32,000 nt of DNA from Acaryochloris marina S15 (GTDB lineage Bacteria; Cyanobacteriota; Cyanobacteriia; Thermosynechococcales; Thermosynechococcaceae): NCBI RefSeq assembly GCF_018336915.1, contig NZ_CP064923.1:5640001-5672000 (forward strand). The letters run 5' to 3'. Shown here in pieces: positions 2,963 to 31,087 of the stretch. Position 1 is the first letter of the stretch, and every line of letters starts with the position of its first letter. The notes under the pieces are model-generated. The model was not told the DNA's origin. It did not search any database and was given only the letters and a program-made list of their open reading frames with translations. The position numbers were made by a program, and so were the translations under genes.

Positions 2963-4138
2963 TTGATGATGACCCACCTGAAATTACCCCGTCGCCGCCT
3001 GTTACAAATGGCAGGTGGCATAGCATTGACACTACTGTGGCCGCACCAGGCCTATGGCCAAACTGGACGACAGGTACGAGATATTGCCAAAGCCGTAACG
3101 GTCTTGGTTTCCCCCCAAAGCAGTTCCGGGTCAGGGGTCTTGATCAAGCAGGAAGGCAGCAGCTACTACGTACTCACGGCTAAGCATGTCATAGAGTCTA
3201 CTGGTGCGGGGGAAGAGGCGGATGTGATCACTGCCGATGGCCAATCTCATGCCGTTAATACTCAGGCTATCTTGTACCTATCAGGGGTCGATTTAGCCCT
3301 GATTCGATTCGATAGTGATCGCAACTATCCGGTCGCCACCCTGGGTAACTCGGAATCCATCACCGAAACGGATACCATTTACATCGCTGGATTTCCCCTA
3401 CCGGGCCAAGCCATCACTTCATCCACCTTCACGATTACGAAGGGAGCCATCACTGGCAAAGGTCAATACCAACGGGGATACGGTCTAATTTACGACAACG
3501 TCACCCAACCGGGCATGAGTGGTGGCCCTATTCTTAGTGAAACTGGACAAGTGATTGGCATTCACGGCTTAGCAGAGGGTGAACGCGTGCAAGGAGTAGC
3601 TGTCAAGGCAGGCTTGAACTTAGGCGTACCCATCAATACGATTCTGGACCTTACACCCCTGGCCCTTAAACCAACTCCTCTGGCGGCTTCATCTCCCCCA
3701 TCTTCAGCCCCTGTAGCCTCCGCAAGTGGAGCAGAACAAACCTTTCGCGCTTTTCTAGATCAGCATTATGCAGCGATGGCCCCTTTAATCGAAACGCGGG
3801 ATGCCGCTCGGCTATTTAACTATATGCCGATCGATAAGGAACGCTTTCGCTACAGGCAGCATACTGGATTGGTCCAAAACTACAACGATCGGGTTGCTGG
3901 AGCTTCAGCGTTTTTCTCCAAAAAACCAGCCAGACAAAAATGGAAACTCTCTTACGAAATCACTGATTTACAAATGCCCACGGCGGATCAAGCCATTGTC
4001 TCTCACATCGAAACGGTAAAATGGTCCAATTGGCCAGGCTTACTACGAGGGGTATTCCGCCGCCGTGAAACCACCTCTTGGGAGCGTATCAACGGCCAAT
4101 GGAAAATTGTCTCGGTGGAAGAAGGTGAAAGGCTATAG
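2963..4138 (+). CDS. Secreted trypsin-like (S1) serine protease fused to a C-terminal NTF2/SnoaL-like domain
   Basis: Catalytic triad contexts LTAKHV, VDLALIRF and GMSGGPIL. The N-terminus PRRRLLQMAGGIALTLL resembles a Tat/Sec signal. The C-terminal ~140 aa resemble NTF2-like/DUF4440 (WERINGQWKIVSVEE). Confidence 0.85.
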   Translation: MMMTHLKLPRRRLLQMAGGIALTLLWPHQAYGQTGRQVRDIAKAVTVLVSPQSSSGSGVLIKQEGSSYYVLTAKHVIESTGAGEEADVITADGQSHAVNTQAILYLSGVDLALIRFDSDRNYPVATLGNSESITETDTIYIAGFPLPGQAITSSTFTITKGAITGKGQYQRGYGLIYDNVTQPGMSGGPILSETGQVIGIHGLAEGERVQGVAVKAGLNLGVPINTILDLTPLALKPTPLAASSPPSSAPVASASGAEQTFRAFLDQHYAAMAPLIETRDAARLFNYMPIDKERFRYRQHTGLVQNYNDRVAGASAFFSKKPARQKWKLSYEITDLQMPTADQAIVSHIETVKWSNWPGLLRGVFRRRETTSWERINGQWKIVSVEEGERL

Positions 4139-4549
4139 ATTGAGCCATTTTTCAAACTTTCCCAACATCTTCCGCAATGACTTCATCTCGACCAATTTAT
4201 ACGCTTTAGCGACAGAGACCACTCGTCGTTCTCGCTCATGGTCTTCTTGCCATCGGCCATGAAGCTGGGTCACCACCAAAGGAAACACCTGCACAGTACA
4301 GGTACTTCCCCATTTTTGATGAGCATAGGTGCCGAGCGGTTCTGTGGCAATCAAACCTTCAATCCCCGCTTCTTCCCATGCCTCTTTTGCTGCCGAATCC
4401 CAGGCCGTTAGATCCGGTTCAATTTCTCCTTTAGGAATAATCCATCGACCTCGCTTACGGGATGTAATTAAGACCACCTTCAAACCATCCGGCTGAATGA
4501 GGTAAGGCAAGGCAGCAGAGTGCTGATAGAGCCCATCAACTGGTTTCAT
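4133..4549 (-). CDS. NUDIX hydrolase
   Basis: 138-aa ORF with a Nudix box GEIEPDLTAWDSAAKEAWEEAGIEG. Confidence 0.85.
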   Translation of the reverse strand: MKPVDGLYQHSAALPYLIQPDGLKVVLITSRKRGRWIIPKGEIEPDLTAWDSAAKEAWEEAGIEGLIATEPLGTYAHQKWGSTCTVQVFPLVVTQLHGRWQEDHERERRVVSVAKAYKLVEMKSLRKMLGKFEKWLNL

Positions 4550-4628
4550 AACAGGTCACTCAAACGTTATAGGGGCGATCAACCGCTGTCTAAGAGAGTA
4601 GCGAGATCTATCCCCTTTGCCAACTCTT

Positions 4629-6374
4629 TCACCAATCTTTCAGACCGTTAGTCATCTTTTCTTGCAGCAGCTCCACTGCCACTTGCCCATCGACCGGTTT
4701 AGAGAATAAATGCCCCTGAGCTTCTTGGCATCCCATATCCAGTAAAAAGCGTCGCTGTACAGGGGTTTCAACTCCTTCAGCCGTCACATTTAACCCCAGG
4801 TCATGGGCTAACTCAATAATGGAGCGCACCAGATCGAGATTATCCACATCCATCCGTTTAATAAAGGACCGATCAATCTTCAAAGTATCCACCGGTAATC
4901 GCTGCAAATACTGCAGCGACGCATAGCCTGTTCCAAAATCATCAATACAGAGGCTGACGCCCATATTTTTAAGCTGATGGAGGGTATCGATCGCCGCTTG
5001 GTCCCGACTAAACAGCACACTCTCAGTAATTTCAATCATGAGCTGTTGCGGAGAAATACGAGTTTCCAGCAACACTTGCCTGACTTGAGATGCTAAATCC
5101 GGCTGATCGAATTGCTTAGCCGAAAAATTGACACTAATCGATAGAGGTTCTTCGGTAAATCTGCGCCACTGCTGAATGCGGAAACAGGCCTCTTTTAACA
5201 TCCACTGATCGATCTCAAAAATCAGGCCCGTTTCTTCAGCAATCGGAATAAACTCTAAAGGAGGAACCATGCCCATCTTGGGATGCATCCATCGGACTAA
5301 GGCCTCAAATCCAATAATTCTTTGATCGGCTAAACACACAATCGGCTGAAAAAACAAGTTCAGTTCTTGCTCACGCAGTGCCCGCTTCAGATCATTTTCC
5401 AGCTGCAACAGTCGAACCGCTCGCGCATGCATGGTGGGATCAAATACCACATAATTAGCTCGCCCCAGCCCTTTGGCAGAACTGACCGCTGTATTAGCAT
5501 CGCGCAGTAAATCTTCAGCCCGGTCATACTCCATCAGAGTTAAGGCAATCCCGACACTGGCCGTAATAAATAACTCTTGCCCACTCAACCGAAAAGGGGT
5601 TTGAAACTCTGCCGAAATTTGGTTGGCAGCCAATATTGCTGTGCTCGTCGCATCAATTTCATCCAACAGAATAATGAATTCATCGCCACTCAACCGGGCA
5701 AAGACATCAAATTCACCCAAGCAATTTTTCAGGCGCCAAGCAATGGAAATAAGGAGCTGATCACCGGCCAAACGGCCAAAACTGTCATTAATACTTTGAA
5801 AACGGTCAATATTGACGATTAAGAGCGCAAAATGATAGCTTTTTTTGCGCTTAGATCGTTCAAAAGCATGGGCCAACTGAATCAGAAAATAGGTTTGATT
5901 CGGCAGTCCCGTCAAGGCATCATAAAACGTCGTTTTGAGAATGCTTTCGCTGGTTTGTTTGCGCTCTTCAATAAAATCTAAAGTGCTTTCCCGTGCTTTT
6001 TGAATAAAGGATAGGAGTTCAATATATTCTCCCTCTGCAGCCTTAACGAGGAGAATTTTCTGAGATCCCAAATTTAGGGCTGCCGCCTCCAAATGAATCT
6101 CCTGATCTTGGCGATCGGCTTCACACCACATGCCCGACTTATACTGCCCTGGCTGATTGTCATGCCAAAACTCCACCGCATCTACTAGAAAATTAGCTAG
6201 AAAAGGCAAGGTCTTTTCAATCCAAGCCATATCTACGGTGAGTTGAACTTGAGGATAGAGCTGGGTAAACCAAGAAGGCGCCGTTCCTACAATTGTTAAG
6301 GAATGCTCATCAACCCGCTCTAAAATCAAAATATCTAAAGCAGAGAGTACATTTGCAGGAAGCGATGCCGTCAT
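4629..6374 (-). CDS. Sensor-GGDEF-EAL protein (c-di-GMP cyclase/phosphodiesterase)
   Basis: GGDEF domain with an SGDEF A-site (ARLSGDEFIILL) and no RxxD I-site. The EAL domain has all key blocks: EALVRW, IEITES, DDFGTGYASL, KIDRSF, AEGVET, QGHLFSKP. The ~150-aa N-terminal domain is unassigned. Confidence 0.9.
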   Translation of the reverse strand: MTASLPANVLSALDILILERVDEHSLTIVGTAPSWFTQLYPQVQLTVDMAWIEKTLPFLANFLVDAVEFWHDNQPGQYKSGMWCEADRQDQEIHLEAAALNLGSQKILLVKAAEGEYIELLSFIQKARESTLDFIEERKQTSESILKTTFYDALTGLPNQTYFLIQLAHAFERSKRKKSYHFALLIVNIDRFQSINDSFGRLAGDQLLISIAWRLKNCLGEFDVFARLSGDEFIILLDEIDATSTAILAANQISAEFQTPFRLSGQELFITASVGIALTLMEYDRAEDLLRDANTAVSSAKGLGRANYVVFDPTMHARAVRLLQLENDLKRALREQELNLFFQPIVCLADQRIIGFEALVRWMHPKMGMVPPLEFIPIAEETGLIFEIDQWMLKEACFRIQQWRRFTEEPLSISVNFSAKQFDQPDLASQVRQVLLETRISPQQLMIEITESVLFSRDQAAIDTLHQLKNMGVSLCIDDFGTGYASLQYLQRLPVDTLKIDRSFIKRMDVDNLDLVRSIIELAHDLGLNVTAEGVETPVQRRFLLDMGCQEAQGHLFSKPVDGQVAVELLQEKMTNGLKDW

Positions 6375-7876: not shown

Positions 7877-9631
7877 TTAATCAGCGTCCGATGGATTAAC
7901 AAAAATAACTTTAAACGTGACCTTGCGATTGGATTTAGAGATCTTAGCCGATTCTGAATTTGCGACTTCAGGAGGCTCAATACTCACTGCCTGTAACTGA
8001 CTTTTCTCAATTCCCTGCTTGGATAGCAAAGAAATGATGGCTTTAGCACGGGTCTCCCGTACATAAAGATTAATCAATTCAGACCCACTGGTATCGGTAT
8101 GTCCTTCAACCAAAACAGCAACGGTTTGGTTAATGGTTTTTGCTGTTTTAGTCAATTTTTTAATTTCTGCCACCAGAATTTTCAATTTGGCATCTTGCTT
8201 AGGCACCAACTGAGCATTTTGGGTAAATAAGAGGGTTTGAGCCTCAATTTTGGTCTTAATACTGGTCAGTACTCCCGCTTCAACTGGAATGACCTCTTGG
8301 GTATTGAAACGGGTGACATTAGGCAGTCGCACGGCTAACTGATTCGCCTGGGTTATCCAGGCTTGAGGGGCTGTCCCCGTCGCTTCAACAGCGCCATTGG
8401 CATCGACGTCTAGGGCAACTGTTTCAGGAGGCTGCAGCAGCGATTTCACTCTGGATTTCACAAATGCAGTATCGAAGGATAGATAGGGCTCCCAATGAAA
8501 ATCAATCTTGTCTGGATCGAGCTCGGTGGTTGAGATCAGGTCGGTTGGCTCAGGTGCTAGGGGATCTTTCAAGCCGGATATCACATATTTGCCGTCTTTT
8601 TTGGCAGTTTGCATCACGACGATGCCAGACTCTTGATTCAGTTGATCGACAAAGCTCCGTACTTGATTACGCTCATGGTTAGACCACATGCCCCATGCCC
8701 CTAATCCCAGAATGAGAATCCCTGCTGCTCCACCAATCCACTTCAAGGGAGACGATTTTTTCTGTTTCGTTTGATATTGGGACTGCAAACATTCTTCTAG
8801 ATAAGGCTGGCTGGGTTCAAAGGCACTGCTATCTCCTTGAAACTCGTGCAGCTGGCTTTCTTGGACTAGGTGAATTCGTTCTAGGGCATTTTCCATCGTT
8901 TGCCGCAGTTTTCCAGGAGGATTTCCCCGAATAACGCAGGCAATAATAGCTTGGGGACCTTCATTGACCCAAATCGTTAACTCTCCTACCTGCAGGCTTC
9001 CTAAGGTATCGTCACTCACACTAAAAGAGTCACGAACAAAGTCTTGAATCGCCGTAAACATAGCAGAGACCAAGTCTGCATCTTGAGCTGCAGCCGTTGG
9101 TGCTGCTAGATGCTGCAGCACCAAGCCCGAGTTTTTGTGAATCAGAAAAACCTGTTCGACCTGATAGACCAGGGTGCGCAACAATAGCACTTCCGCAAAA
9201 GATTTGCCTGTACGCCAGGCTTCAAACCGCCAACCTAAGCTTTGGGGAGAAAGGCTATGTTCGAGCCCTTGGTTCAGGGAGTCGGTTAAATTCTGTATGG
9301 CCACTGCGATCGCTTTTCGTATCGCCGGACCCATGATGGGAAAAAGGGCCTCAGACAAGATATTTTGATCGGTATTAACCGAAGATTTAATCGCCTGTTC
9401 TACCGTAGGCACCACCGCTTTAGAGACCGTTTTGTCCCCTGTCTCTAGGGTCAGTTGAATCGCTTGGGGCAACACTCGACTGACATCTTCCGAGCGGAGT
9501 TTGGTGTTCTCAAACTGATCTTTTAGATCAGGGCCAATCAGTAAGTTTCTGAGCTCATTCAACTCACTAGCCTGGGATATCTCTTTAGGGTGAGAGTTCC
9601 CACGATTTACGTTAGAAGATAAGTCACTCAT
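7877..9631 (-). CDS. Transmembrane protein: cytoplasmic Roadblock/LC7-like segment, one TM helix, periplasmic OmpA_C peptidoglycan-binding domain
   Basis: OmpA_C block VEGHTDTSGSELINLYVRETRAKAIISLL...NRKVTFKV. TM helix WIGGAAGILILGLGAWGMW. The Roadblock-like call rests on the pattern VFLIHKNSGLVLQHLAA..DADLVSAMFTAIQDFVRDSF..IIACVIRG, read by eye only. Confidence 0.8.
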   Translation of the reverse strand: MSDLSSNVNRGNSHPKEISQASELNELRNLLIGPDLKDQFENTKLRSEDVSRVLPQAIQLTLETGDKTVSKAVVPTVEQAIKSSVNTDQNILSEALFPIMGPAIRKAIAVAIQNLTDSLNQGLEHSLSPQSLGWRFEAWRTGKSFAEVLLLRTLVYQVEQVFLIHKNSGLVLQHLAAPTAAAQDADLVSAMFTAIQDFVRDSFSVSDDTLGSLQVGELTIWVNEGPQAIIACVIRGNPPGKLRQTMENALERIHLVQESQLHEFQGDSSAFEPSQPYLEECLQSQYQTKQKKSSPLKWIGGAAGILILGLGAWGMWSNHERNQVRSFVDQLNQESGIVVMQTAKKDGKYVISGLKDPLAPEPTDLISTTELDPDKIDFHWEPYLSFDTAFVKSRVKSLLQPPETVALDVDANGAVEATGTAPQAWITQANQLAVRLPNVTRFNTQEVIPVEAGVLTSIKTKIEAQTLLFTQNAQLVPKQDAKLKILVAEIKKLTKTAKTINQTVAVLVEGHTDTSGSELINLYVRETRAKAIISLLSKQGIEKSQLQAVSIEPPEVANSESAKISKSNRKVTFKVIFVNPSDAD

Positions 9632-21059: not shown

Positions 21060-21074
21060 TGATAATCATTATCA
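21060..21074. promoter_or_regulatory. Fur-family (Fur/Zur) box
   Basis: TGATAATCATTATCA is a perfect match to the 7-1-7 consensus TGATAATnATTATCA. The extended 19-mer TAAAATGATAATCATTATC matches 17/19 of the classical Fur box. It sits in the 96-bp divergent intergenic region. Confidence 0.7.
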
Positions 21075-21104: not shown

Positions 21105-22331
21105 GTGAACCATCAGATTGATATTGCCATTATTGGGGCAGGTCCCCAGGCGCTGACGCTAGTCACCCACTTACTGCAGAAAAAGCCTGCTCTCAGGAAT
21201 CGCCTCCAGATCTTTGACCCCAGCGGCACCTGGATGGTCCAGTGGCGGCAACAATTTGCAGCTCAGGAAATTCCTTATTTGCGATCGCCTGGTGTCCATC
21301 ACCCCGATACAAAGGAAACCCTTTTCAACTTTGCGGACCATCGCCAGGAGGAGTTGTATTACCCTTACAATCGCCCTGGGACAAAACTGTTTCAGGATTT
21401 CTGTGAAACCGTCATTGATCGATGGCAGTTGCGCAAGCAGGTGACCGCCGCCCAGGTGGTTCAGCTGGCGCCATTGACTAGTGGCTTTCAACTTCAGCTC
21501 GATACGGGGGAGCAGGTTGTAGCGCGGCGAGTGGTGTTGGCAACGGGTGGGGGAGCTGCCCAGATACCTGACTGGACTGCCGAGGTGAATCCACATCCAC
21601 CCGGACGGTTGTGCCATAGCCAGGACATTAATCTGCCCGATTTGCCGGATCTGAGCGGTGAGACAGTTCTGATTATTGGCAGTGGTCAGACCAGCGCCCA
21701 TTTGGCCTTGGGGGCAATTAAGCGCGGAGCCAAAGTCTTGATGATGGCCCGACGGAACCTCAATGAAAAAATATTTGATGCAGAACCAGGATGGTTGGGG
21801 CCCAAGTATCTGAAGGGGTTTCAGGTCGAACCCGATTGGCAGGTGCGGTGGCAAATGATTCAAGCAGCCCGCAATGGTGGATCCATCGCCCCCGAATTGC
21901 TGACCCAGTTACGGCGGCTGTCCCAGTCAGACCAAGTCAGCTTGTATGAACAGTGCCAGGTGTCTCGTGCCCTTTGGCAACATGAAACCTGGCAGGTGCA
22001 GTGTAATGTGGCTAGCACTCATGATTGTCTGGCCCATCAGCGGATTAATCGAATCTGGTTAGCCACGGGCACCGCCACGGATATCACGACTCATCCCCTA
22101 ATGGGAGAAGTATTGGCACGCTATCCCAATCAGATTGTTAACGGCTTGCCGGTGCTAGATGAGCATTTGCGCTGGCCAGGATGTGACCTGTTTTTGATGG
22201 GGCCATGGGCTGCATTACAAGTGGGTCCCGTCGCCCGGAATTTGCACGGCGGCAGAATGGCCTGCGATCGCATTGTCCCAGCATTAACCAAAGCCAGTCT
22301 GGCCCGGACTGTGATTCATTCCCCCAGATAA
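21105..22331 (+). CDS. FAD/NAD(P)-binding oxidoreductase
   Basis: GTG start. N-terminal dinucleotide-binding motif IAIIGAGPQALTL and a second Rossmann motif VLIIGSGQTSAHLA. Confidence 0.8.
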   Translation: MNHQIDIAIIGAGPQALTLVTHLLQKKPALRNRLQIFDPSGTWMVQWRQQFAAQEIPYLRSPGVHHPDTKETLFNFADHRQEELYYPYNRPGTKLFQDFCETVIDRWQLRKQVTAAQVVQLAPLTSGFQLQLDTGEQVVARRVVLATGGGAAQIPDWTAEVNPHPPGRLCHSQDINLPDLPDLSGETVLIIGSGQTSAHLALGAIKRGAKVLMMARRNLNEKIFDAEPGWLGPKYLKGFQVEPDWQVRWQMIQAARNGGSIAPELLTQLRRLSQSDQVSLYEQCQVSRALWQHETWQVQCNVASTHDCLAHQRINRIWLATGTATDITTHPLMGEVLARYPNQIVNGLPVLDEHLRWPGCDLFLMGPWAALQVGPVARNLHGGRMACDRIVPALTKASLARTVIHSPR

Positions 22332-22349
22332 TCATCTCCGCTTATTCTT

Positions 22350-22844
22350 ATGGTTGATGTCGCCTTTTCACAGTCCTCCATTATGTCTACTGATCTATCC
22401 CTACCTCCTGCCCTTGCCAAAATTGTCCAGCGCTTCCAGAGCATTACGGATACCAAGCGTCGGTATGAGTATTTACTATGGTTTGCCAAACAACTCCCTC
22501 CCTTTCCAGAGGCGGATAAGCAGCCTGCCAATAAAGTGGTGGGCTGTGTGTCCCAGGTCTATGTCACAGCAACTTTGGAGGATGGCATCGTTCATTTCCA
22601 GGGTGACTCTGATGCCCAAATGACTAAAGGGTTAGTGGGATTGTTAATTAAAGGGTTGGATGGGCTCTCCCCAGAACAAATCGCTCGGGTCACGCCTGAT
22701 TTTATCCAACAAACAGGACTCAATGTGAGCTTGACGCCGTCTCGAGCCAATGGGTTTTATAACATCTTCACCACCTTGCAGCGACTGGCTCTCACCCTCT
22801 CATCTGCATCGTCATCATCTTCAGACCCTTTCCACACACAGTAA
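22350..22844 (+). CDS. sufE: SufE-like cysteine desulfuration (sulfur acceptor) protein
   Basis: Conserved block KVVGCVSQVYV with the acceptor Cys, then FQGDSDAQMTKGL. Alternative start at ATG 22383. Confidence 0.8.
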   Translation: MVDVAFSQSSIMSTDLSLPPALAKIVQRFQSITDTKRRYEYLLWFAKQLPPFPEADKQPANKVVGCVSQVYVTATLEDGIVHFQGDSDAQMTKGLVGLLIKGLDGLSPEQIARVTPDFIQQTGLNVSLTPSRANGFYNIFTTLQRLALTLSSASSSSSDPFHTQ

Positions 22845-23493
22845 TTGGAGGATACCGTTGACTAATTTATCTGCAAGCGTTCAAACATCCCAATCCCTCG
22901 ATATAACACTGCCTAAAAAAGGCATGCCGGTTACGATTATCACGGGGTTTCTGGGAAGTGGTAAAACCACACTTCTCAACCATATTCTCAATACCTGCCA
23001 AGATCTGAAGGTCGCTGTACTGGTCAATGAATTTGGAGATATCGATATTGACAGTCAGTTGTTGACTACCATTGATGAAAATATGGTTCAGCTGACCAAT
23101 GGCTGCATCTGCTGCACCATCAATGACGACTTGGTAGAGGCGGTCTATTCCGTCCTCGAACAAGAAGAAAAAATTGATCATGTCGTCATCGAAACTACGG
23201 GCGTAGCTGATCCGCTGCCGATTATTCTCACCTTCGTTGGCTCCCAACTGCGGGACGTCACCCAGCTAGATTCGATCATCACTTTGGTGGATTCAGAAAC
23301 CTTTACCCCGGAATGTTTTCAGAGTGAGGCAGCCCTGAATCAAATCACCTTTGGCGATATTGTCGTTCTCAACAAAACCGATCTGGCAACCGATCAAAAG
23401 GTTGAGGAACTAGAGCATTGGATTCGCGATCACAAATGGGGGGCACGGTTATTGCGATCGCAACAGGGCCAAGTCCCCCTCCCGTTGATTCTA

Positions 23494-24727
23494 TAGATCT
23501 TCAGAAAAGCATCCGTGGTTTTAGCGACACTACATCTTCATTAAATATAGTAACTAGCTCCTGATACTCTTAGCTCTGGCAAGGATTTCAAGATTATCAG
23601 AGGTCATCCAGTATGCTCGCACAATTCAAACTGCGCTTTACCCAATCAACACGCAAAAAGATTGAAGCTAAACTGCGCCAGGCATACGGGAGTCAGAATT
23701 TACGTCTGGTCAAACGTATTAGTGCTTTATTGCAGCTTGGTCAAGGTGGTTCAGTGGCACAGGTAGCTGAAACATTGGCACTAGGCGAACAAACGATCAG
23801 GGATTATCTGCATGCATTTCTAAAACGAGGTATCGCTAGCTTTAGATACAAAGCGTCTCAAGGACGTCGCAGCAAACTCACTCCACGGCAACGACAACAG
23901 CTCAAGTCATGGATTAAAGCAGGTCCGCTCAAAGCTGGATACGAGTGTGGTTGTTGGAGTGCATTAATGGTTCAAGACCTGATTGCGAAACGCTTCAATG
24001 TTTCCTATCATCCCCATTATGTGAGTACTCTACTGAGGAACTTAGGCTTTTCATTTCAAAGAGCACGGTTTGTTGCAGCTCATCTCAATGAAGCCAAGCG
24101 ACAAGAATGGATGACACACAAATGGCCTGAGATTTTGCGTTTATCAGCAGCCAAAGATGCCCTAATTTTATTTGGGGATGAGGCCAGTTTTGCGCAGTGG
24201 GGGTCGTTAAGCTACACCTGGAGTCTTCGTGGAGACCAGCCAACATTGCCCACCAGTGGTAAACGGAAGGCTTACAAGGTGTTTGGATTAATTGATTATC
24301 ATTCTGGTCAGTTCTTCTATCAAGGTCAGACGGGACGCTTCAATTCTGAAGGGTATACTGCTTTTCTAACTCAAGTACTCCAGCAGACTCACAAGCATAT
24401 TATTCTCATTCAGGACGGGGCTAGATATCACACCAGTAAAGCAACTAAGCAGTTCTTTGACCAGCAATCCGCTCGCCTTACTCCTTTCCAATTACCCACA
24501 TATTCTCCTGACTTCAACCCAATTGAATTCTTGTGGAAGAAACTCAAAAAACGCAGCACACACCTACGGTTCTTCAAGCAATTTGATGACTTAGTTCAGC
24601 AGGTCGATGAGGGGCTACTGTACTTTAGTCAGACTCCCAATGAAATTACTGTCTTAATGGGCAAATATTGCAAAACCTTGGGTACACAAGCTGCCTAGCT
24701 AATCACGGATCTTTATCTGTAGATCTA
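23494..24727 (+). mobile_element. IS630-family insertion sequence (1234 bp)
   Basis: 24-bp imperfect terminal inverted repeats: TAGATCTTCAGAAAAGCATCCGTG versus the reverse complement TAGATCTACAGATAAAGATCCGTG. TA target duplication at 23492-23493 and 24728-24729. One transposase ORF. Confidence 0.9.
23613..24698 (+). CDS. IS630-family DDE transposase
   Basis: 361 aa. N-terminal HTH region and a DDE triad context: LFGDEASF, IQDGARYHTS, DFNPIEFLWKKLK. Confidence 0.9.
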   Translation: MLAQFKLRFTQSTRKKIEAKLRQAYGSQNLRLVKRISALLQLGQGGSVAQVAETLALGEQTIRDYLHAFLKRGIASFRYKASQGRRSKLTPRQRQQLKSWIKAGPLKAGYECGCWSALMVQDLIAKRFNVSYHPHYVSTLLRNLGFSFQRARFVAAHLNEAKRQEWMTHKWPEILRLSAAKDALILFGDEASFAQWGSLSYTWSLRGDQPTLPTSGKRKAYKVFGLIDYHSGQFFYQGQTGRFNSEGYTAFLTQVLQQTHKHIILIQDGARYHTSKATKQFFDQQSARLTPFQLPTYSPDFNPIEFLWKKLKKRSTHLRFFKQFDDLVQQVDEGLLYFSQTPNEITVLMGKYCKTLGTQAA

Positions 24728-25217
24728 TAGATACAGCCCTCTTTGATCCAAAGGCTTATGAAGCGGAAGCCAAAGCCTTTGCAGAGCAGGAGGCGCATCA
24801 TCACCATGACGATCATGATCATCACCACCACCATCATGGCGATCACGATCATGACCACCACCATTCAGATCACCTCACCGTAGATGGCTTCTCATCGATG
24901 GTCTTTGAAAGCGATCGGCCCTTTATCTTAGAAAAAATGCAGGATTTCGTCACCGATCAGCTACCGGAAGAAGTTTTCAGAGCAAAAGGCTTCATGTGGT
25001 TTGAAAAAAATACATCCCGCTATATTTTTCAGCTCAGTGGCAAGCGATATACGATGGATACCGATCAGTGGCCTGATGCCCCGAAAAATCAGTTGGTCTT
25101 TATTGGCCGCAATATTGACACAGCACAGCTACAGCAACTGCTAAAAAATTGTTTGGCCCCCTAGGCCCTGACTTCGCCCAAACTTGCCCGGATTCTATGA
25201 CGCAGTGAATACGGCGA

Positions 25218-25853: not shown

Positions 25854-25918
25854 AACATTCAAAGCAGTATTAGAATGTTACTGCACCCAAATCAAACATT
25901 CAAGCCAACATTAGAATG
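25854..25918. promoter_or_regulatory. Two operator-like repeats AACATTCAA-N6-ATTAGAATG, 41 bp apart
   Basis: 25854-25879 reads AACATTCAAAGCAGTATTAGAATGTT, an imperfect palindrome. 25895-25918 reads AACATTCAAGCCAACATTAGAATG. Both lie between the arsR-family stop and the CDF start. Confidence 0.4.
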
Positions 25919-25920
25919 AC

Positions 25921-26621: not shown

Positions 26622-26918
26622 ATGAACGTGTACTTTGTCCTGCATGGCATTACCTTTTCTTGGAATGATGAAAAAGCGCGAATCAATCCACTCAATCACG
26701 ATGGCATTACCTTTCAATAAGCGGCTGAGGCTTTTTTTGACCCCTTCCTTGTGCTTGTTGATGCAAGTCGTAATGATGAAGCGCGAGATGCTGTAATTGG
26801 GCTAGATACTCGATGGAATCTGCTGTATGTCGTCCACATCGAGCAAGAAGCAAAAGGTATACGAATTATCTCAGCACGCAAAGCAACTCACCAGGAGAGA
26901 GCCGACTATGAAAATTGA
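26622..26918 (+). pseudogene. brnT: BrnT (DUF497) toxin with in-frame TAA
   Basis: MNVYFVLHGITFSWNDEKARINPLNHDGITFQ*AAEAFFDP...LLYVVHIEQEAKGIRIISARKATHQERADYEN matches the DUF497 pattern end to end. The TAA at 26718-26720 falls where the family usually has Glu. The toxin overlaps the antitoxin start. Confidence 0.7.
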
Positions 26919-27201
26919 AGCCCTAAAGAAGCGCCTCGATCGCAACCGTCCTATGACCAGTGTGACCATTCGGATGCCTGAAGATGTCATAGAAGACCTG
27001 AAGAGAGTTGCACCATTATTGGGATTTTCAGGCTATCAGCCTCTGATTCGCGCCTATGTTGGTCAAGGGTTGCGAGTTGATTTAGAGCGGCTTGAAAGTG
27101 AGACAGTGACCACATTGGTGAAAAGTTTGAAGCGTCGCGGTGTGAGCGATGCGGTAATTGAGGAAGCATTAGGTGAAGTCGCTCATGCTACATCTGATTG
27201 A
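26908..27201 (+). CDS. brnA: BrnA-type antitoxin
   Basis: TSVTIRMPEDVIEDLKRVAPLLGFSGYQPLIRAYVGQGL matches the BrnA pattern. ATG at 26908 is preferred over the ORF track start at 26827. Confidence 0.8.
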   Translation: MKIEALKKRLDRNRPMTSVTIRMPEDVIEDLKRVAPLLGFSGYQPLIRAYVGQGLRVDLERLESETVTTLVKSLKRRGVSDAVIEEALGEVAHATSD

Positions 27202-27293: not shown

Positions 27294-28103
27294 TTAACGC
27301 GATTCGTCCAAGCCGAGGGTAAATCCTGTAACCCATCCTCGCTGAACCCAGAGAGGGAGCAGAGCGGTGACGTCAATATCTGGGTTGTCCTCAAGCTGGA
27401 CGCAAATCTCTCCAAATGGGTCACCGGAAGCAAAGGCTTGTAGGAGCTGCCACTCAGCAGCACTGGGTAAGTCAATCCGGGTTTCATACTGGTCTCGCCA
27501 GAGAAACAGATTCACATCGCCCTCGTTCAGATCGATGGTCTCGGTACTAGAGGCATCGGCCTGATTCACTTGCCAAATTCGGTGAACGGGATAGGGGGAG
27601 GTCATTAACACACTATTGTCGGGAAGCTGGAGCACCAGTTCAGGCCAACGGTCAGATGGCACTTGACCCAAGGCGGCCAAATCTAAACCCGGTTGGTCTG
27701 TACTGTTAAAGATGCAGTGCCAATGCCACTCTAAACGAGCCACATCAGATAGGTAGGGTAACGATGCTGCCGGTTCAAACTGGGCTATAAAGACAGGGAG
27801 CTGTTCCCCATAATCTCCGAGGTCAGGGGATTGGGAGGGATGTCGGCGGATATATTGCCGAGCCATGGCGGTGAAAAACTGGACACCCACCAATCGACAA
27901 CAGACAGGATAAATCTCTTCTAGAGCCCGACTGAGTTTGCCAACTAAGCTTCCTTGATAGGCTGATAAACCCCGTTCAAAGGAGAGGTGTTCTGTGCTGC
28001 GCATCTGGGGTTGGAGCTGCTGGATGCTGTCGGCGTTTTGTGTTGCGATCGCATCGTAAAACAACTGCTGTAACTCCCTTAGTTCTGGGGGTGGTGTTGA
28101 CAT
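27294..28103 (-). CDS. bufC: DUF2063 protein (HvfC/BufC-type RiPP maturation partner)
   Basis: 269 aa. N-terminal LQQLFYDAI...YQGSLVGKLSRALEEIYPVCCRLVG...FFTAMARQYIRRHPS is typical of DUF2063. It overlaps the DUF692 gene by 25 nt. Confidence 0.85.
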   Translation of the reverse strand: MSTPPPELRELQQLFYDAIATQNADSIQQLQPQMRSTEHLSFERGLSAYQGSLVGKLSRALEEIYPVCCRLVGVQFFTAMARQYIRRHPSQSPDLGDYGEQLPVFIAQFEPAASLPYLSDVARLEWHWHCIFNSTDQPGLDLAALGQVPSDRWPELVLQLPDNSVLMTSPYPVHRIWQVNQADASSTETIDLNEGDVNLFLWRDQYETRIDLPSAAEWQLLQAFASGDPFGEICVQLEDNPDIDVTALLPLWVQRGWVTGFTLGLDESR

Positions 28104-28909
28104 AGGTAGGTATCGGCTTGCTGGGCTTCGGCCATCAAAACATCAAAGCTAGGAATATCTGTATCCCACTCAATCAGCGTTGGCACAGGACCAAACCGCT
28201 GAAGGGCCTGCTGATAAAGCGTCCAAACCCCAGGCTGTACCGGGTAGCCGTGGGTATCGAATAAAAAGTGGTCCTGCTCTTCGTAACCCGCCAGATGGAT
28301 CTCTTTGATGCGATCTACGGGAAGTGCATCCAGATAGTCCAAGGGGTCAAAGCCATGATTCGTGGCATTGACGTAGACATTGTTGATATCTAAGAGCAGA
28401 TGACAATCGGCTTCGACTAAGAGGGCGGCCAGAAACTGCCATTCAGTCAAGCTATTGTGGCGAAACTGGAGATAGGGCGATAGATTTTCAATCAGAATCT
28501 GGCGACCGAGGAAGTCCTGCACCTGCGAAATCCGATCGGCAACGTAATGGAGAACCGATTCAGTGTAGGGTAACGGCGCTAAGTCATTGAAATAATGGCC
28601 GTTGACGGACACCCAGGCCAAATGATCAGAGACATGAACTGGCTCAATCCGATCCGCAAGCTGTTTGAGCTGGGTCAAATAGTCCATATTGAGGGGATCT
28701 GCTGACCCCAGGGACAGACTGACGCCATGGAGGGTGATCGGATACTGTGCTCGAATTTGTTCGAGGTGATACAAAGGCAAACCACCCCCCAAATAATTGT
28801 CGGAGAGGGCTTCTAGCCAGGGTATGGCGGGTTGATGAGTAAGGATGTGGTTGTAGTGTTGCGATCGCAACCCAATCCCAACTCCTTGAATCGTTGTCAT
28901 AGCACCCAT
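28079..28909 (-). CDS. bufB: DUF692 / MNIO-family oxidative RiPP maturase (HvfB/BufB/MbnB-like)
   Basis: GVGIGLRSQHY...PWLEALSDNY...TLHGVSLSLGS...VSDHLAW...ILIENLS...LLLDINNVYVNA...IHLAGY...PTLIEWD is collinear with the DUF692 TIM-barrel. Start moved to ATG 28909 (GGAG 5 nt upstream), because the ORF track start at 28954 lies inside a hairpin. Confidence 0.9.
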   Translation of the reverse strand: MGAMTTIQGVGIGLRSQHYNHILTHQPAIPWLEALSDNYLGGGLPLYHLEQIRAQYPITLHGVSLSLGSADPLNMDYLTQLKQLADRIEPVHVSDHLAWVSVNGHYFNDLAPLPYTESVLHYVADRISQVQDFLGRQILIENLSPYLQFRHNSLTEWQFLAALLVEADCHLLLDINNVYVNATNHGFDPLDYLDALPVDRIKEIHLAGYEEQDHFLFDTHGYPVQPGVWTLYQQALQRFGPVPTLIEWDTDIPSFDVLMAEAQQADTYLCQHHPQN

Positions 28910-28929
28910 AAATACTCCAAAACGTAAGG

Positions 28930-28954
28930 GTGCCTGCCGATTCACAGCAGGCAC
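28930..28954 (-). terminator. Hairpin (leaky terminator/attenuator) between precursor and maturase genes
   Basis: GTGCCTGC (28930-28937) pairs with GCAGGCAC (28947-28954) across a 9-nt loop. On the transcript it is followed by CCUUACGUUUUGG. It is duplicated at 30250-30274 after the second precursor copy. Confidence 0.45.
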
Positions 28955-28978
28955 TCAAACTTCGTTGGGTCAATTAAC

Positions 28979-29284
28979 TTAACCCTTCTCCTTGCCTTCT
29001 TCAGCAGGAGGTGCAGCCTCTTTCAAGGTTGATCCAACAATCTTTTCACAGGTTCCAGCAGGCACATAAATCCACTCTTCTGGGTCATTATCGACTGTCG
29101 CTTTACCAGAGCAGTCATGCTTGCTCGTGCCACAGTCATTGAGGCCAGTCTTGACGATACCGGCACATTTTTCAAAACCGGGCTTACCGGCGACTGCATC
29201 ATCCGATCGCGTTGCCACTAGGCCGAGGGCAAGCACACCTGATAAAGCGGTGGTAACAGCAATGGCTTTGGTCGTCGTTTTCAT
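28979..29284 (-). CDS. bufA: DUF2282 secreted Cys-containing RiPP precursor (HvfA/BufA bufferin-type metallophore), copy 1
   Basis: Signal peptide [24 protein letters not shown]. Core [47 protein letters not shown] carries the four conserved Cys of DUF2282. Confidence 0.85.
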
Positions 29285-29383: not shown

Positions 29384-29678
29384 TTTTCGATTTTGTCGTC
29401 GTTTGCACCTAAGTGCATTGCCTATGGAGAATTTGGAGAATTGCAATAGTCTCCGACCAGCCTATGTCCTGCGGACAGAAAGCAACGGCCATCGCAACCT
29501 TACCGTCAGCAGCTACGACAACGGGTTTAAGAATAAAAATCTGTTTTCCTGCCGATGACACCATAGGTTAAATATAAAATTTTCCTTAAATCTTATAAAA
29601 TTGGTTACGTTCATATATTTAAAGTCTGTCTAAAAAAATCGGCACAGGCTTTGTTTTTTTATTTATTTGGAGATAAAA

Positions 29679-30191
29679 GTGAAGAAACAAGCATTAACTC
29701 TCGCATTAGCTAGTACCCTTCTTGCTACGAGCGCTTACGCTTCCGACATCACCACTGAAGAAGTTGAAGCAGCACAAGACGCATGGGGAAATGGCATTGT
29801 AGAAATAGGCAAAGCTGAAGATCCTAAACAAGCAGCCATCGCCCATATTGATAAGTTTTATGGGTTTGATATGGGTTCTGTTTTGTTCAAACCGACCTTA
29901 GCATCTGAGGATCAATTTCGAGGGACCAAACAAGAAGCCTTATCTTATTTCATTGGCCAAAATTTGAAAGAAGACAAGGGATTTGCCCTTGCACCCTACA
30001 CTAAAGTTCGTTGGGAAAATGAAGGCATCATCGTTGACGATGACTCAGCCGTAGCAATGGGGAATTACTTCTTCACTAAAACAGATGGTGAAGAAATAAA
30101 AGTGGAGTTTACCCTTGGTTACGTTAAAGACGACAATGGCAACTTAAAGATTAATCTGCACCATTCATCACTACCCTTTAGTGCCAACTAA
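29679..30191 (+). CDS. Secreted hypothetical protein (possible NTF2/SnoaL-like fold)
   Basis: GGAGA plus GTG at 29679 (the ORF track starts at TTG 29667). Signal peptide MKKQALTLALASTLLATSAYA. The coding and upstream sequence are visibly more AT-rich than the surroundings. Confidence 0.7.
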   Translation: MKKQALTLALASTLLATSAYASDITTEEVEAAQDAWGNGIVEIGKAEDPKQAAIAHIDKFYGFDMGSVLFKPTLASEDQFRGTKQEALSYFIGQNLKEDKGFALAPYTKVRWENEGIIVDDDSAVAMGNYFFTKTDGEEIKVEFTLGYVKDDNGNLKINLHHSSLPFSAN

Positions 30192-30298
30192 TCTCAGTTC
30201 AGCCCCCTGACTTGAAGTCATTGAAGCCATAAATACTCCAAAACGCAAAGTGCCTGCTATTGACAAGCAGGCACTCCAACTTTGCAGGGTGAAGTGAC

Positions 30299-30613
30299 TT
30301 ACCCCTGCTTCTTGTCTTCTTCAACAGCTTCCGCAGGGGGAGCAGCCTCCTTCAAGGTTGATCCAACAATCTTTTCACAGGTTCCAGCAGGCACATAAAT
30401 CCACTCTTCTGGGTCATTATCGACTGTCGCTTTACCAGAGCAGTCATGCTTGCTCGTGCCACAGTCATTGAGGCCAGTCTTGACGATACCCGCACATTTT
30501 TCAAACCCAGGCTTACCGGCAACTGCATTGTCAGATCGAGTCGCAACTAAACCAAGGGCAAGCACACTGGATAAAGCAGTGGTAACGGCAACGGCTTTGG
30601 TCGTTGTTTTCAT
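30299..30613 (-). CDS. bufA: DUF2282 RiPP precursor (BufA-type), orphan copy 2
   Basis: The core peptide is identical to copy 1. Differences are confined to the signal peptide (I/V, G/S, D/N) and the acidic C-terminal tail. Confidence 0.85.
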
Positions 30614-30826: not shown

Positions 30827-31087
30827 CTAACGAAGAGATTCACAGAGTGCATCAATATCTTGCTTGGCAATCTCACTGGCGGCTCGATGGAGCTTATATT
30901 GCTGAGGGGGATGGGTCATGATCGCAATCACCGTTTCTATGGGTGGGCAACAAGGCTCATGACAGGCCAACTGACTAATTGACACCGGGATATCAGCAGG
31001 AATGGTAAAGGCTTCATAAACCCAGGCTTTCAGTTGTTCAATCTGTTCTGGATCCGCTTTAGGCGTAGATGTTTTAAACAAATCCAT
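30827..31087 (-). CDS. Small hypothetical protein with CHEPCCPP motif
   Basis: 86-aa ORF starting 23 nt downstream of the WD40 gene on the same strand. Confidence 0.5.
   Translation of the reverse strand: MDLFKTSTPKADPEQIEQLKAWVYEAFTIPADIPVSISQLACHEPCCPPIETVIAIMTHPPQQYKLHRAASEIAKQDIDALCESLR

What the first reader, a model, noticed from the sequence alone, without database searches (positions are those of the whole stretch)
27294..29284. DUF2282-DUF692-DUF2063 cluster: MNIO-dependent bufferin/Hvf-type RiPP metallophore system in a cyanobacterium
The gene order is precursor (signal peptide plus four-Cys core [20 protein letters not shown]...GTCEKIVG), then DUF692 multinuclear non-haem iron oxidative enzyme, then DUF2063 partner. 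The last two genes overlap by 25 nt.

This trio was an uncharacterised conserved neighbourhood until it was recently shown in proteobacteria to make periplasmic copper-binding peptides (bufferins), with Cys residues converted to thiooxazole-type heterocycles. The cyanobacterial version here lacks a DoxX-type fourth gene and has an acidic, Pro/Glu/Lys-rich C-terminal tail on the precursor. It sits next to Zn/Cd-type homeostasis genes, so its metal specificity and chemistry are open.
Basis: partly seen in the sequence, partly recalled or inferred. Interest (0 to 1): 0.85.

Follow-up and report, generated by a model that had tools for sequence, protein, structure and literature searches.

The report
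Ordinary bufferin copper-peptide operon in Acaryochloris
This is a genuine three-gene operon for a bufferin, a small exported peptide whose cysteines are enzymatically converted into metal-binding rings, but it belongs to a large, well-described family and these exact Acaryochloris precursor proteins are already labelled as such in public databases.

Summary
The minus strand carries bufA (28979-29284, DUF2282/BufA1), bufB (28079-28909, MNIO, above the NCBIfam BufB equivalog cutoff) and bufC (27294-28103, DUF2063 partner). bufB and bufC overlap by 25 nt. All testable defining features of a Buf1-type bufferin cluster are met.

It is not novel. The two precursor proteins are already named "BufA1 family periplasmic bufferin-type metallophore". 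The A. marina MBIC11017 trio is listed in a 2025 survey table. The absence of DoxX and the acidic tail are not distinctive. About 60% of MNIO clusters lack DoxX, DoxX is dispensable in Caulobacter, and non-cyanobacterial homologs have similar tails.

- A second precursor gene (30299-30613) sits upstream. A periplasmic iota-carbonic-anhydrase homolog lies between the two copies.
- Both copies are followed by a hairpin. Its structure is conserved in all cyanobacterial loci examined.
- The two copies share a 140-nt identical core, best explained by gene conversion.

The zinc-type neighbours are real and more extensive than reported: Zur-box operons, two COG0523 genes, SmtB-like/CDF. They are syntenic only within Acaryochloris, and no shared operator links them to buf. 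Metal specificity remains untested.

The parts
28979..29284 (-). bufA_1: bufferin precursor of 101 aa. It has a Sec-type signal peptide (residues 1-32, predicted cleavage AVA|GK) and a 69-aa core with Cys40, 51, 58 and 79.
   Evidence: PF10048 scores 81.7 bits. G4, E6, K7, C8, N17, C19, H24, C26, C47 and other columns are invariant across 50 homologs. The AF2 model of the mature part has pLDDT 81 with a disordered tail. NCBI/UniRef name it a BufA1 family bufferin.
28930..28954 (-). 10-bp GC-rich hairpin between bufA_1 and bufB, followed by CCTTACGTTTT. It is a probable attenuator, partial terminator or mRNA-stabilising element that would set a high precursor-to-enzyme ratio.
   Evidence: The 81-nt region folds at -30.7 kcal/mol with z = -4.1. 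The scan flags it as terminator-like. All 13 cyanobacterial loci have a hairpin at this position with different stem sequences, with median dG -20 against -4 in other phyla.
28079..28909 (-). bufB: MNIO (DUF692) maturase of 276 aa, counted from ATG 28909. The mechanical ORF from GTG 28954 is 291 aa.
   Evidence: NF050167 MNIO_BufB scores 377.6 bits against a cutoff of 310, and PF05114 scores 365.6 bits. The best PDB match is 3BWW, E 3.6e-46. H61, H96, E141, D174, N177, H205, D218, H220, E247 and D249 are invariant in 79 of 79 homologs.
27294..28103 (-). bufC: DUF2063/PME1 partner protein of 269 aa. It overlaps bufB by 25 nt, which suggests translational coupling.
   Evidence: PF09836 scores 75.4 bits. 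The AF2 model has pLDDT 91.7. Foldseek matches TglI (8HI7/8HCI, prob 1.00, TM 0.59-0.62) and 3DEE (TM 0.51/0.66).
30299..30613 (-). bufA_2: second, stand-alone precursor gene of 104 aa. Its mature core is identical to that of bufA_1 up to residue 94; only the last 7-10 residues of the tail differ.
   Evidence: PF10048 scores 81.6 bits. The copies are aligned. The same two-copy arrangement occurs in complete genome CP071717.1 and in SRR17348483. A 140-nt stretch is identical to copy 1 (29022-29161), whereas the sister genome shows 8 synonymous differences between its copies.
30248..30276 (-). Copy of the hairpin downstream of bufA_2. It probably terminates this monocistronic gene.
   Evidence: The stem is preserved, with a U-G to U-A change relative to copy 1.
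30192..30230 (-). Remnant of the 5' end of bufB (RBS, ATG and about 10-14 codons). It marks the boundary of the duplication and abuts the stop codon of the iota-CA-like gene.
   Evidence: The alignment of the two copies extends through TTTTGGAGTATTTATGG and into the bufB start. Collinearity with L003 runs to this point.

Best explanation
This is a Buf1-type (DUF2282 group) bufferin/captophorin biosynthetic cluster of an Acaryochloris cyanobacterium. Two precursor genes encode about 100-aa pre-peptides. In the cytoplasm, the BufB-BufC complex is predicted to act on them. BufB is the multinuclear non-haem iron oxidase and BufC is its DUF2063/RRE-like partner. The complex is predicted to convert the two central cysteines (Cys51 and Cys58, in the invariant N-D-C-G and H-x-C motifs) into 5-thiooxazoles. 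The Sec pathway then exports the peptide, signal peptidase cuts after Ala32, and Cys40 and Cys79 form a disulfide. The product is a folded 69- or 72-residue peptide. It is predicted to chelate copper outside the cytoplasm and buffer excess metal. A conserved hairpin after bufA probably keeps the precursor in excess over the enzymes, and the 25-nt bufB/bufC overlap couples their translation. The gene content, family membership, catalytic residues, partner fold, duplication and hairpin conservation are shown here. The modification chemistry, export, copper binding and attenuation are inferred from characterised homologs.
For: The family HMMs are above curated cutoffs. All MNIO metal-site residues are invariant, including the equivalents of HvfB N175, D242 and H244, which were shown to be essential. 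The BufC model matches the MNIO partners TglI and 3DEE. The four Cys and the motifs around them are invariant across 50 homologs. bufA-bufB-bufC is conserved in 12 further cyanobacterial loci spanning several genera. In Caulobacter, BufB1 and BufC1 are necessary and sufficient to install two thiooxazoles on the central Cys residues, the outer Cys residues form a disulfide, and DoxX is dispensable (PMC11626156; PMC12452194). 5-Thiooxazole formation is reported as general to MNIO-PME1 clusters (PMC13097082). The two precursor cores differ only by synonymous changes in the sister genome, which indicates purifying selection on both. The hairpin is conserved in structure but not in sequence.
Against: There are no experimental data for any cyanobacterial member. 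No copper gene and no SigF/NrsF-type regulator lies in the window. In Acaryochloris the immediate neighbourhood is zinc-themed rather than copper-themed. The signal peptide was judged by inspection only. In a cyanobacterium a Sec signal could direct the peptide to the thylakoid lumen as well as to the periplasm. The hairpin lacks a clean U-tract, so its role is uncertain.
Confidence: 0.8

Rival explanations
1. The enzymology is the same, but the physiological metal in Acaryochloris is zinc or cadmium rather than copper. Under this reading the peptide is part of a zinc-homeostasis island, acting in buffering, in acquisition, or in protection against mis-metallation during Zn limitation.
For: The locus lies between two operons with Zur/Fur-type boxes. 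One is a perfect box at window 21060-21074, upstream of the oxidoreductase-SufE-COG0523 operon. The other precedes a second COG0523-WD40-orf86 operon, which lies directly upstream on the same strand in CP071717.1 near a FUR-family gene. The locus is also next to an SmtB-like/CDF pair. A metal-independent carbonic anhydrase homolog is nested between the two precursor genes. MerC-bufferin fusions suggest that some bufferins serve metals other than copper.
Against: The synteny with these genes holds only within Acaryochloris and is absent from L006-L013. No Zur box lies within 400 nt upstream of any cyanobacterial bufA. The ArsR-type palindromes occur only between arsR and the CDF gene. The spacing between bufC and arsR varies from 172 nt to 4 kb and holds mobile cassettes. 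The Zur consensus I used was recalled from memory.
Confidence: 0.1
2. The precursor is modified differently (oxazolone-thioamide as in methanobactin, or another MNIO reaction), or it is not modified at all and acts as a plain Cys-rich secreted protein.
For: MNIOs catalyse varied reactions, and the assignments for related products were disputed for a time.
Against: BufB passes the BufB equivalog cutoff and fails the MbnB (69 against 325), ApyH and ChrH cutoffs. Recent work reassigns the Hvf and oxazolin products to 5-thiooxazoles and generalises this to MNIO-PME1 clusters. The tight linkage and overlap of bufB and bufC with bufA across cyanobacteria argues for modification.
Confidence: 0.06
3. 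bufC encodes a DNA-binding transcription regulator (the old DUF2063 annotation), and the three genes are not a biosynthetic unit.
For: The legacy Pfam and NCBI descriptions read 'putative DNA-binding domain'.
Against: The confident model matches TglI, the partner subunit of the MNIO TglH, and 3DEE, which is now classed as PME1 (PMC13097082). PME1 proteins are almost always encoded next to MNIOs. The bufB-bufC overlap also argues for a unit.
Confidence: 0.02

Closest known systems
Caulobacter vibrioides buf1 (bufA1B1C1D1) and the Cupriavidus/Legionella 'gig' operons: Buf1-type bufferins (PMC11626156)
   Same: The precursor is a DUF2282 protein with a Sec signal and four Cys. It is followed by an MNIO (BufB equivalog) and then a DUF2063 partner, in the same gene order.
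   Different: This locus has no DoxX gene and no SigF/NrsF pair. A strong hairpin separates bufA from bufB. There is a second stand-alone precursor. The host is a cyanobacterium, and the genomic context is zinc-themed rather than copper- or gold-responsive.
Caulobacter buf2 (bufA2B2C2)
   Same: It is a three-gene cluster without DoxX, with an MNIO plus a DUF2063 partner.
   Different: BufA2 has six Cys (Cys-Lys type). The window's precursor scores only 19 bits against the BufA2 model, whose cutoff is 60.
HvfABC(D)/oxazolin of non-typeable Haemophilus influenzae, and fontiphorin/gonophorin (captophorins; PMC11252979, PMC13097082)
   Same: The MNIO-PME1 enzyme pair is shared, as is Cys to 5-thiooxazole chemistry and copper-binding peptides with signal peptides.
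   Different: Those precursors carry repeated EGKCG motifs and are largely unstructured. Here there is a single folded four-Cys domain. The HvfB and HvfC equivalog cutoffs are not reached.
Methanobactin MbnABC
   Same: An MNIO with a partner protein modifies Cys residues of a ribosomal peptide into Cu-binding heterocycle and sulfur ligands.
   Different: The MbnB model scores 69 against a cutoff of 325. That system uses a leader-peptide rather than a Sec-signal precursor, has a different partner (MbnC), makes oxazolone-thioamide, and secretes a chalkophore for Cu uptake.

Membership tests
Buf1-type bufferin cluster (DUF2282 group of captophorins) | The precursor matches DUF2282/BufA1 (PF10048) above the gathering score. 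| tested here: met
   81.7 and 81.6 bits for the two copies against a cutoff of 22.4.
Buf1-type bufferin cluster (DUF2282 group of captophorins) | Four conserved Cys (CysI-IV) in the core peptide. | tested here: met
   C40, C51, C58 and C79 are present. All four columns are invariant in 50 homologs.
Buf1-type bufferin cluster (DUF2282 group of captophorins) | [quoted passage not shown] | tested here: met
   By inspection: a basic n-region (MKTTTK), a hydrophobic h-region, and A-V-A|G-K. The junction is conserved across homologs. There is no lipobox and no twin-arginine motif. No dedicated predictor was run.
Buf1-type bufferin cluster (DUF2282 group of captophorins) | An adjacent MNIO enzyme of the BufB type. 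| tested here: met
   NF050167 scores 377.6 bits against an equivalog cutoff of 310, and PF05114 scores 365.6 bits.
Buf1-type bufferin cluster (DUF2282 group of captophorins) | The MNIO iron-site residues are intact. | tested here: met
   H61, H96, E141, D174, N177, H205, D218, H220 and E247 are invariant in 79 of 79 sequences. The motifs align to 3BWW. N177, D218 and H220 correspond to the essential HvfB residues N175, D242 and H244.
Buf1-type bufferin cluster (DUF2282 group of captophorins) | A PME1 partner with a DUF2063 N-domain and an RRE-like C-domain. | tested here: met
   PF09836 scores 75.4 bits. The model (pLDDT 91.7) matches TglI and 3DEE with probability 1.00. A weak structural match to the RRE protein TbiB1 also appears.
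Buf1-type bufferin cluster (DUF2282 group of captophorins) | A DoxX fourth gene. This is frequent but not required. | tested here: not met
   0 of 13 cyanobacterial loci and none in the 32-kb window, against 31 of 68 other loci. It is not a defining feature. Only about 40% of MNIO clusters have it and it is dispensable in Caulobacter.
Buf1-type bufferin cluster (DUF2282 group of captophorins) | The central Cys residues are converted to 5-thiooxazoles (-4 Da each) and the outer Cys residues form a disulfide. | not testable with these tools
   This needs co-expression and MS/NMR. The predicted masses are given.
Buf1-type bufferin cluster (DUF2282 group of captophorins) | Copper binding and protection under copper stress. 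| not testable with these tools
   There are no expression or phenotype data for cyanobacteria. A literature search found no paper that discusses cyanobacterial members.
Hvf/oxazolin-type (EGKCG repeat) captophorins | A precursor with repeated EGKCG motifs, and HvfB/HvfC equivalogs. | tested here: not met
   The precursor has a single FEKCAG and no repeats. HvfB scores 260.5 against a cutoff of 360, and HvfC scores 36.7 against 142.
Buf2 (Buf_6/12Cys) bufferins | A six-Cys precursor matching BufA2. | tested here: not met
   NF050166 scores 19.3 and 19.9 bits against a cutoff of 60, and the precursor has four Cys.
Methanobactin | An MbnB equivalog with MbnA and MbnC. | tested here: not met
   TIGR04159 scores 69.2 against a cutoff of 325. 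No MbnA or MbnC is present.

The most novel reading that the evidence does not exclude
In Acaryochloris the bufferin genes are embedded in a zinc-homeostasis island. That island holds a FUR-family regulator, two COG0523 operons with Zur-type boxes, an SmtB-like/CDF pair, and a metal-independent iota-carbonic anhydrase nested between two precursor genes. The most novel reading not excluded is that this cyanobacterial bufferin serves zinc economy rather than copper detoxification in the periplasm, for example as a Zn/Cd buffer or as protection from Cu mis-metallation when Zn is scarce. A related possibility is that its Sec signal delivers it to the thylakoid lumen.
Probability: 0.1. Interest if true: 0.6.

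Novelty: new member of a known kind. Interest (0 to 1): 0.25.

Why it matters
It matters little as a discovery. Bufferins/captophorins are now a large, surveyed RiPP class with more than 24,000 MNIO-PME1 loci, and this locus fits the Buf1 template and is already annotated. Its modest value is as an entry point to the function of bufferins in oxygenic phototrophs. These organisms must supply copper to plastocyanin and cytochrome oxidase while avoiding toxicity, and no member has been studied in them. The Acaryochloris alleles with one or two precursor genes, with or without the nested carbonic anhydrase, offer a natural series for testing precursor dosage.

Tried and rejected
1. Shared regulation with the ArsR/SmtB-CDF pair. 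The ACATTC-N12-GAATGT palindromes occur only in the arsR-CDF intergenic region, and none lies near either bufA copy.

2. Zur control of buf. No match to a Zur/Fur-type box with up to 3 mismatches lies within 400 nt upstream of any cyanobacterial bufA. The one exception is a background-level hit in L013.

3. A regulatory motif conserved across cyanobacteria upstream of bufA. No 9-mer is shared by 6 or more lineages. Only subclade-specific blocks appear. The TCTCAG-N5-TCTCAG repeat of L010 and L013 is absent near buf in the window.

4. A functional link between buf and the nested iota-CA gene. The CA gene is absent from L003 and from all non-Acaryochloris loci, so I rejected it as a cluster component.

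5. A hidden DoxX. An iterative search with Pfam-verified seeds found none in any cyanobacterial locus.

6. Solved-structure relatives of BufA. None was found by sequence or by fold.

7. Metal-related neighbours in other cyanobacterial buf loci. None was found.

8. Assembly artefact as the explanation for the two precursor copies. I rejected this because the same arrangement occurs in a complete chromosome and in an independent SRA assembly.
Full report
**Observation.** The minus strand between 27294 and 29284 carries three ORFs exactly as described.

- The 101-aa product of 28979-29284 matches Pfam DUF2282 (now called BufA1) at 81.7 bits against a cutoff of 22.4.
- The product of 28079-28954 matches the MNIO family PF05114 at 365.6 bits. 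It also passes the NCBIfam BufB equivalog cutoff (377.6 against 310).
- The product of 27294-28103 matches DUF2063 at 75.4 bits against a cutoff of 27.2.
- The bufB stop and the bufC start overlap by 25 nt (28079-28103).
- The real bufB start is probably ATG 28909, not the mechanical GTG 28954. A GGAG lies 5 nt upstream of the ATG, and the GTG extension would run through a stable hairpin.

**Organism and distribution.**

- BufB is 97% identical to the chromosomal gene of Acaryochloris marina MBIC11017.
- Twelve cyanobacterial species in the genome collection carry bufA-bufB-bufC in the same order. They are Acaryochloris (4), an uncultured cyanobacterium, Pseudanabaenaceae (2), Caldora, Oscillatoria, Symploca (2) and Hormoscilla.
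- Protein searches add Moorena, Dapis, Hydrocoleum, Okeania, Trichodesmium, Xenococcaceae and one Synechococcus.

**Membership.** Every testable defining feature of a Buf1-type bufferin cluster is met.

- The four Cys and the surrounding motifs (E-K-C, N-D-C-G, H-x-C, G-T-C) are invariant in 50 homologs.
- The N-terminus has the form of a Sec signal, with a conserved A-x-A|G-K junction.
- The mature peptide models as a small folded domain (pLDDT 81) with a disordered tail.
- BufB retains H61, H96, E141, D174, N177, H205, D218, H220 and E247, which are invariant in 79 of 79 relatives. These align with the metal-site motifs of 3BWW. N177, D218 and H220 correspond to HvfB N175, D242 and H244, whose substitution abolishes activity.
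- The BufC model (pLDDT 91.7) matches TglI, the partner of the MNIO TglH, and 3DEE, the Neisseria PME1 protein, each with probability 1.00.
- The locus is not Hvf-type, Buf2-type or methanobactin-type. Those equivalog models all score below their cutoffs, and the precursor has no EGKCG repeats.

**Mechanism (inferred from characterised homologs).**

- In Caulobacter, BufB1 and BufC1 are necessary and sufficient to convert the two central Cys of BufA1 into 5-thiooxazoles. The outer Cys form a disulfide, for a total shift of -10 Da. The Sec signal exports the peptide, the product binds copper, and DoxX is dispensable (PMC11626156).
- Later work generalises 5-thiooxazole formation to MNIO-PME1 clusters, with the DUF2282 group as one of three precursor groups among more than 24,000 loci (PMC13097082).
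- Here the predicted targets are Cys51 and Cys58, with a Cys40-Cys79 disulfide. Mature masses are predicted to fall from 7146.44 to 7136.36 (copy 1) and from 7502.61 to 7492.53 (copy 2).

1. *A second precursor gene lies at 30299-30613.*
   - The duplication spans about 40 nt of upstream sequence, the coding sequence, the hairpin, the RBS and roughly the first 10-14 codons of bufB.
   - The two mature cores are identical. Only the last 7-10 tail residues differ.
   - A 140-nt stretch (29022-29161) is 100% identical between the copies, while the flanks are 55-83% identical.
   - In the sister genome CP071717.1, the same two copies differ at 8 positions in that stretch yet encode identical proteins.
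   - So both copies are under purifying selection, and the window's strain has undergone a recent gene conversion.
   - The arrangement is real. It occurs in a complete chromosome and in an independent SRA assembly.

2. *Acaryochloris has three structural alleles of this locus.*
   - L003: orf86-bufA-bufBC.
   - MBIC11017 and two MAGs: orf86-[CA]-bufA-bufBC.
   - The window: orf86-bufA_2-bufB'-[CA]-bufA_1-bufBC.
   - Each of the window's two bufA upstream regions is the sole bufA upstream region in another strain. Both copies therefore probably have promoters (inference).

3. *A hairpin follows each bufA copy.*
   - The 81-nt region downstream of bufA_1 folds at -30.7 kcal/mol with z = -4.1.
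   - All 13 cyanobacterial loci have a strong hairpin at that position with unrelated stem sequences, and L004 shows compensatory changes. Median dG is -20 kcal/mol.
   - In other phyla the gap is typically about 23 nt and has no hairpin.
   - I infer attenuation or transcript stabilisation that favours the precursor over the enzymes. This comparison is partly confounded by intergenic length.

**The features offered as distinctive.**

- *DoxX.* It is absent from all 13 cyanobacterial loci and from the whole window, and present in 31 of 68 other loci. However, only about 40% of MNIO clusters have DoxX, it is dispensable, and A. marina has seven DoxX proteins elsewhere.
- *The tail.* The acidic, Pro-rich tail is real but short and variable. 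Longer versions occur in Beggiatoa-like and other non-cyanobacterial homologs.

- A perfect TGATAATCATTATCA box at 21060-21074 precedes an oxidoreductase-SufE-COG0523 operon. Its cobW gene is split by an IS630-family transposase.
- In CP071717.1, just beyond the window edge, there is a FUR-family gene with its own box. There is also a second COG0523-WD40-orf86 operon with a box, on the same strand as buf and immediately upstream of it.
- An SmtB-like regulator and a CDF transporter, with their own palindromes, lie downstream.
- However, this synteny exists only within the genus.
- No Zur-type or ArsR-type site lies near bufA.
- The space between bufC and arsR is variable and holds a toxin-antitoxin cassette.
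- The box consensus I used was recalled from memory. I therefore rate a zinc-related role at about 0.1.

**Novelty.**

- The window's two precursor proteins are WP_212663711.1 and WP_212663713.1. Both are named "BufA1 family periplasmic bufferin-type metallophore". The Acaryochloris BufC homologs are named "HvfC/BufC N-terminal domain-containing protein", although the window's own BufC sequence was found only in an unannotated SRA assembly.
- The MBIC11017 trio is a row in the supplementary genome table of the 2025 MNIO landscape paper.
- Neither that paper nor the 2024 paper discusses cyanobacteria in its main text.
- This is an uncharacterised but routine member of a known family. The interest score of 0.85 is not justified, and I score it 0.25.

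Noticed in passing
window 29667-30191 (+): A secreted 174-aa homolog of metal-independent iota-carbonic anhydrase sits between the two bufferin precursor genes. It matches PDB 7C5V (Anabaena all2909) at E 5e-31 and also 7C5X. NCBIfam NF047901 scores 132 bits, below its cutoff of 350. The KPT, YF.G and HHSS motifs, which carry the catalytic Thr, Tyr, His and Ser of all2909, are retained. It is flanked by direct repeats of about 450 nt (the two bufA copies), so recombination could excise it. It is present in some Acaryochloris strains and absent from L003.
   Followed up: partly
window 21060-21074: A perfect 7-1-7 Zur/Fur-type palindrome, TGATAATCATTATCA, lies about 30 nt upstream of an operon at 21105-25164. 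The operon encodes an FAD/NAD(P) oxidoreductase, SufE and a COG0523 (CobW/ZigA-like) GTPase. It is probably a zinc-limitation operon. The consensus was recalled from memory.
   Followed up: partly
window 22750-25164: The COG0523/CobW gene is split by an IS630-family (DDE_3) transposase. The GTPase domain is at 22750-23496 and the transposase at 23613-24698. The His-rich linker and CobW_C domain follow at about 24740-25164. The gene is intact (364 aa) in the sister genome CP071717.1.
   Followed up: partly
L082 (CP071717.1) 57-71, 136-531, 3461-5720, just beyond the window's high-coordinate edge: A FUR-family regulator has its own Zur-like box. A second COG0523 gene with overlapping boxes immediately upstream follows, overlapping a WD40 gene and then orf86. 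All are on the same strand as the buf genes and directly upstream of bufA_2.
   Followed up: partly
window 30827-31087 (-): orf86 is an 86-aa protein with no Pfam or NCBIfam match that carries a C-H-E-P-C-C-P-P motif. It is conserved downstream of the COG0523-WD40 pair in all Acaryochloris loci. It may be a small metal-binding protein.
   Followed up: no
window 25855-25878 and 25896-25919: Two operator-like palindromes, ACATTC-N12-GAATG(T/A), lie in the 58-nt gap between the ArsR/SmtB-family gene and the CDF transporter gene. The regulator has an ELCVCD motif typical of thiolate-type metal sites. The count of 2 is not above chance window-wide, but the tandem placement is suggestive.
   Followed up: partly
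window 26751-27201 (+): A BrnT-like toxin (PF04365, 42 bits, N-terminally short ORF) and a weakly BrnA/CopG-like antitoxin form a cassette between bufC and arsR. This spacer varies from 172 nt to about 4 kb among Acaryochloris strains, so it is an insertion hotspot.
   Followed up: partly
L010 about 9270-9300 and L013 about 4920-4950 (upstream of bufA): Oscillatoria sp. SIO1A7 and Hormoscilla share a block, TTCTCAGGTTAGTCTCAGATT, upstream of bufA. It contains the direct repeat TCTCAG-N5-TCTCAG with an 11-nt period, which resembles an OmpR-type response-regulator site. It is absent near buf in the window.
   Followed up: partly
L001 (Logan SRR12447961 contig, 2123 nt): This short-read contig is identical to the window's bufA_1 3' end, bufB, bufC and orf124. 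It begins exactly 30 nt inside the 140-nt stretch shared by the two bufA copies. That is what a k-mer assembly break at a repeat would give, so that sample probably has the two-copy allele too.
   Followed up: no
(protein hits P0006, P0043, P0149, P0153): The closest non-cyanobacterial BufA and BufC relatives are from large sulfur bacteria (Thiomargarita, Parabeggiatoa, Albibeggiatoa). Their identities equal or exceed those of many filamentous cyanobacteria. Some are 149-aa precursors. This hints at lateral transfer between these groups.
   Followed up: no
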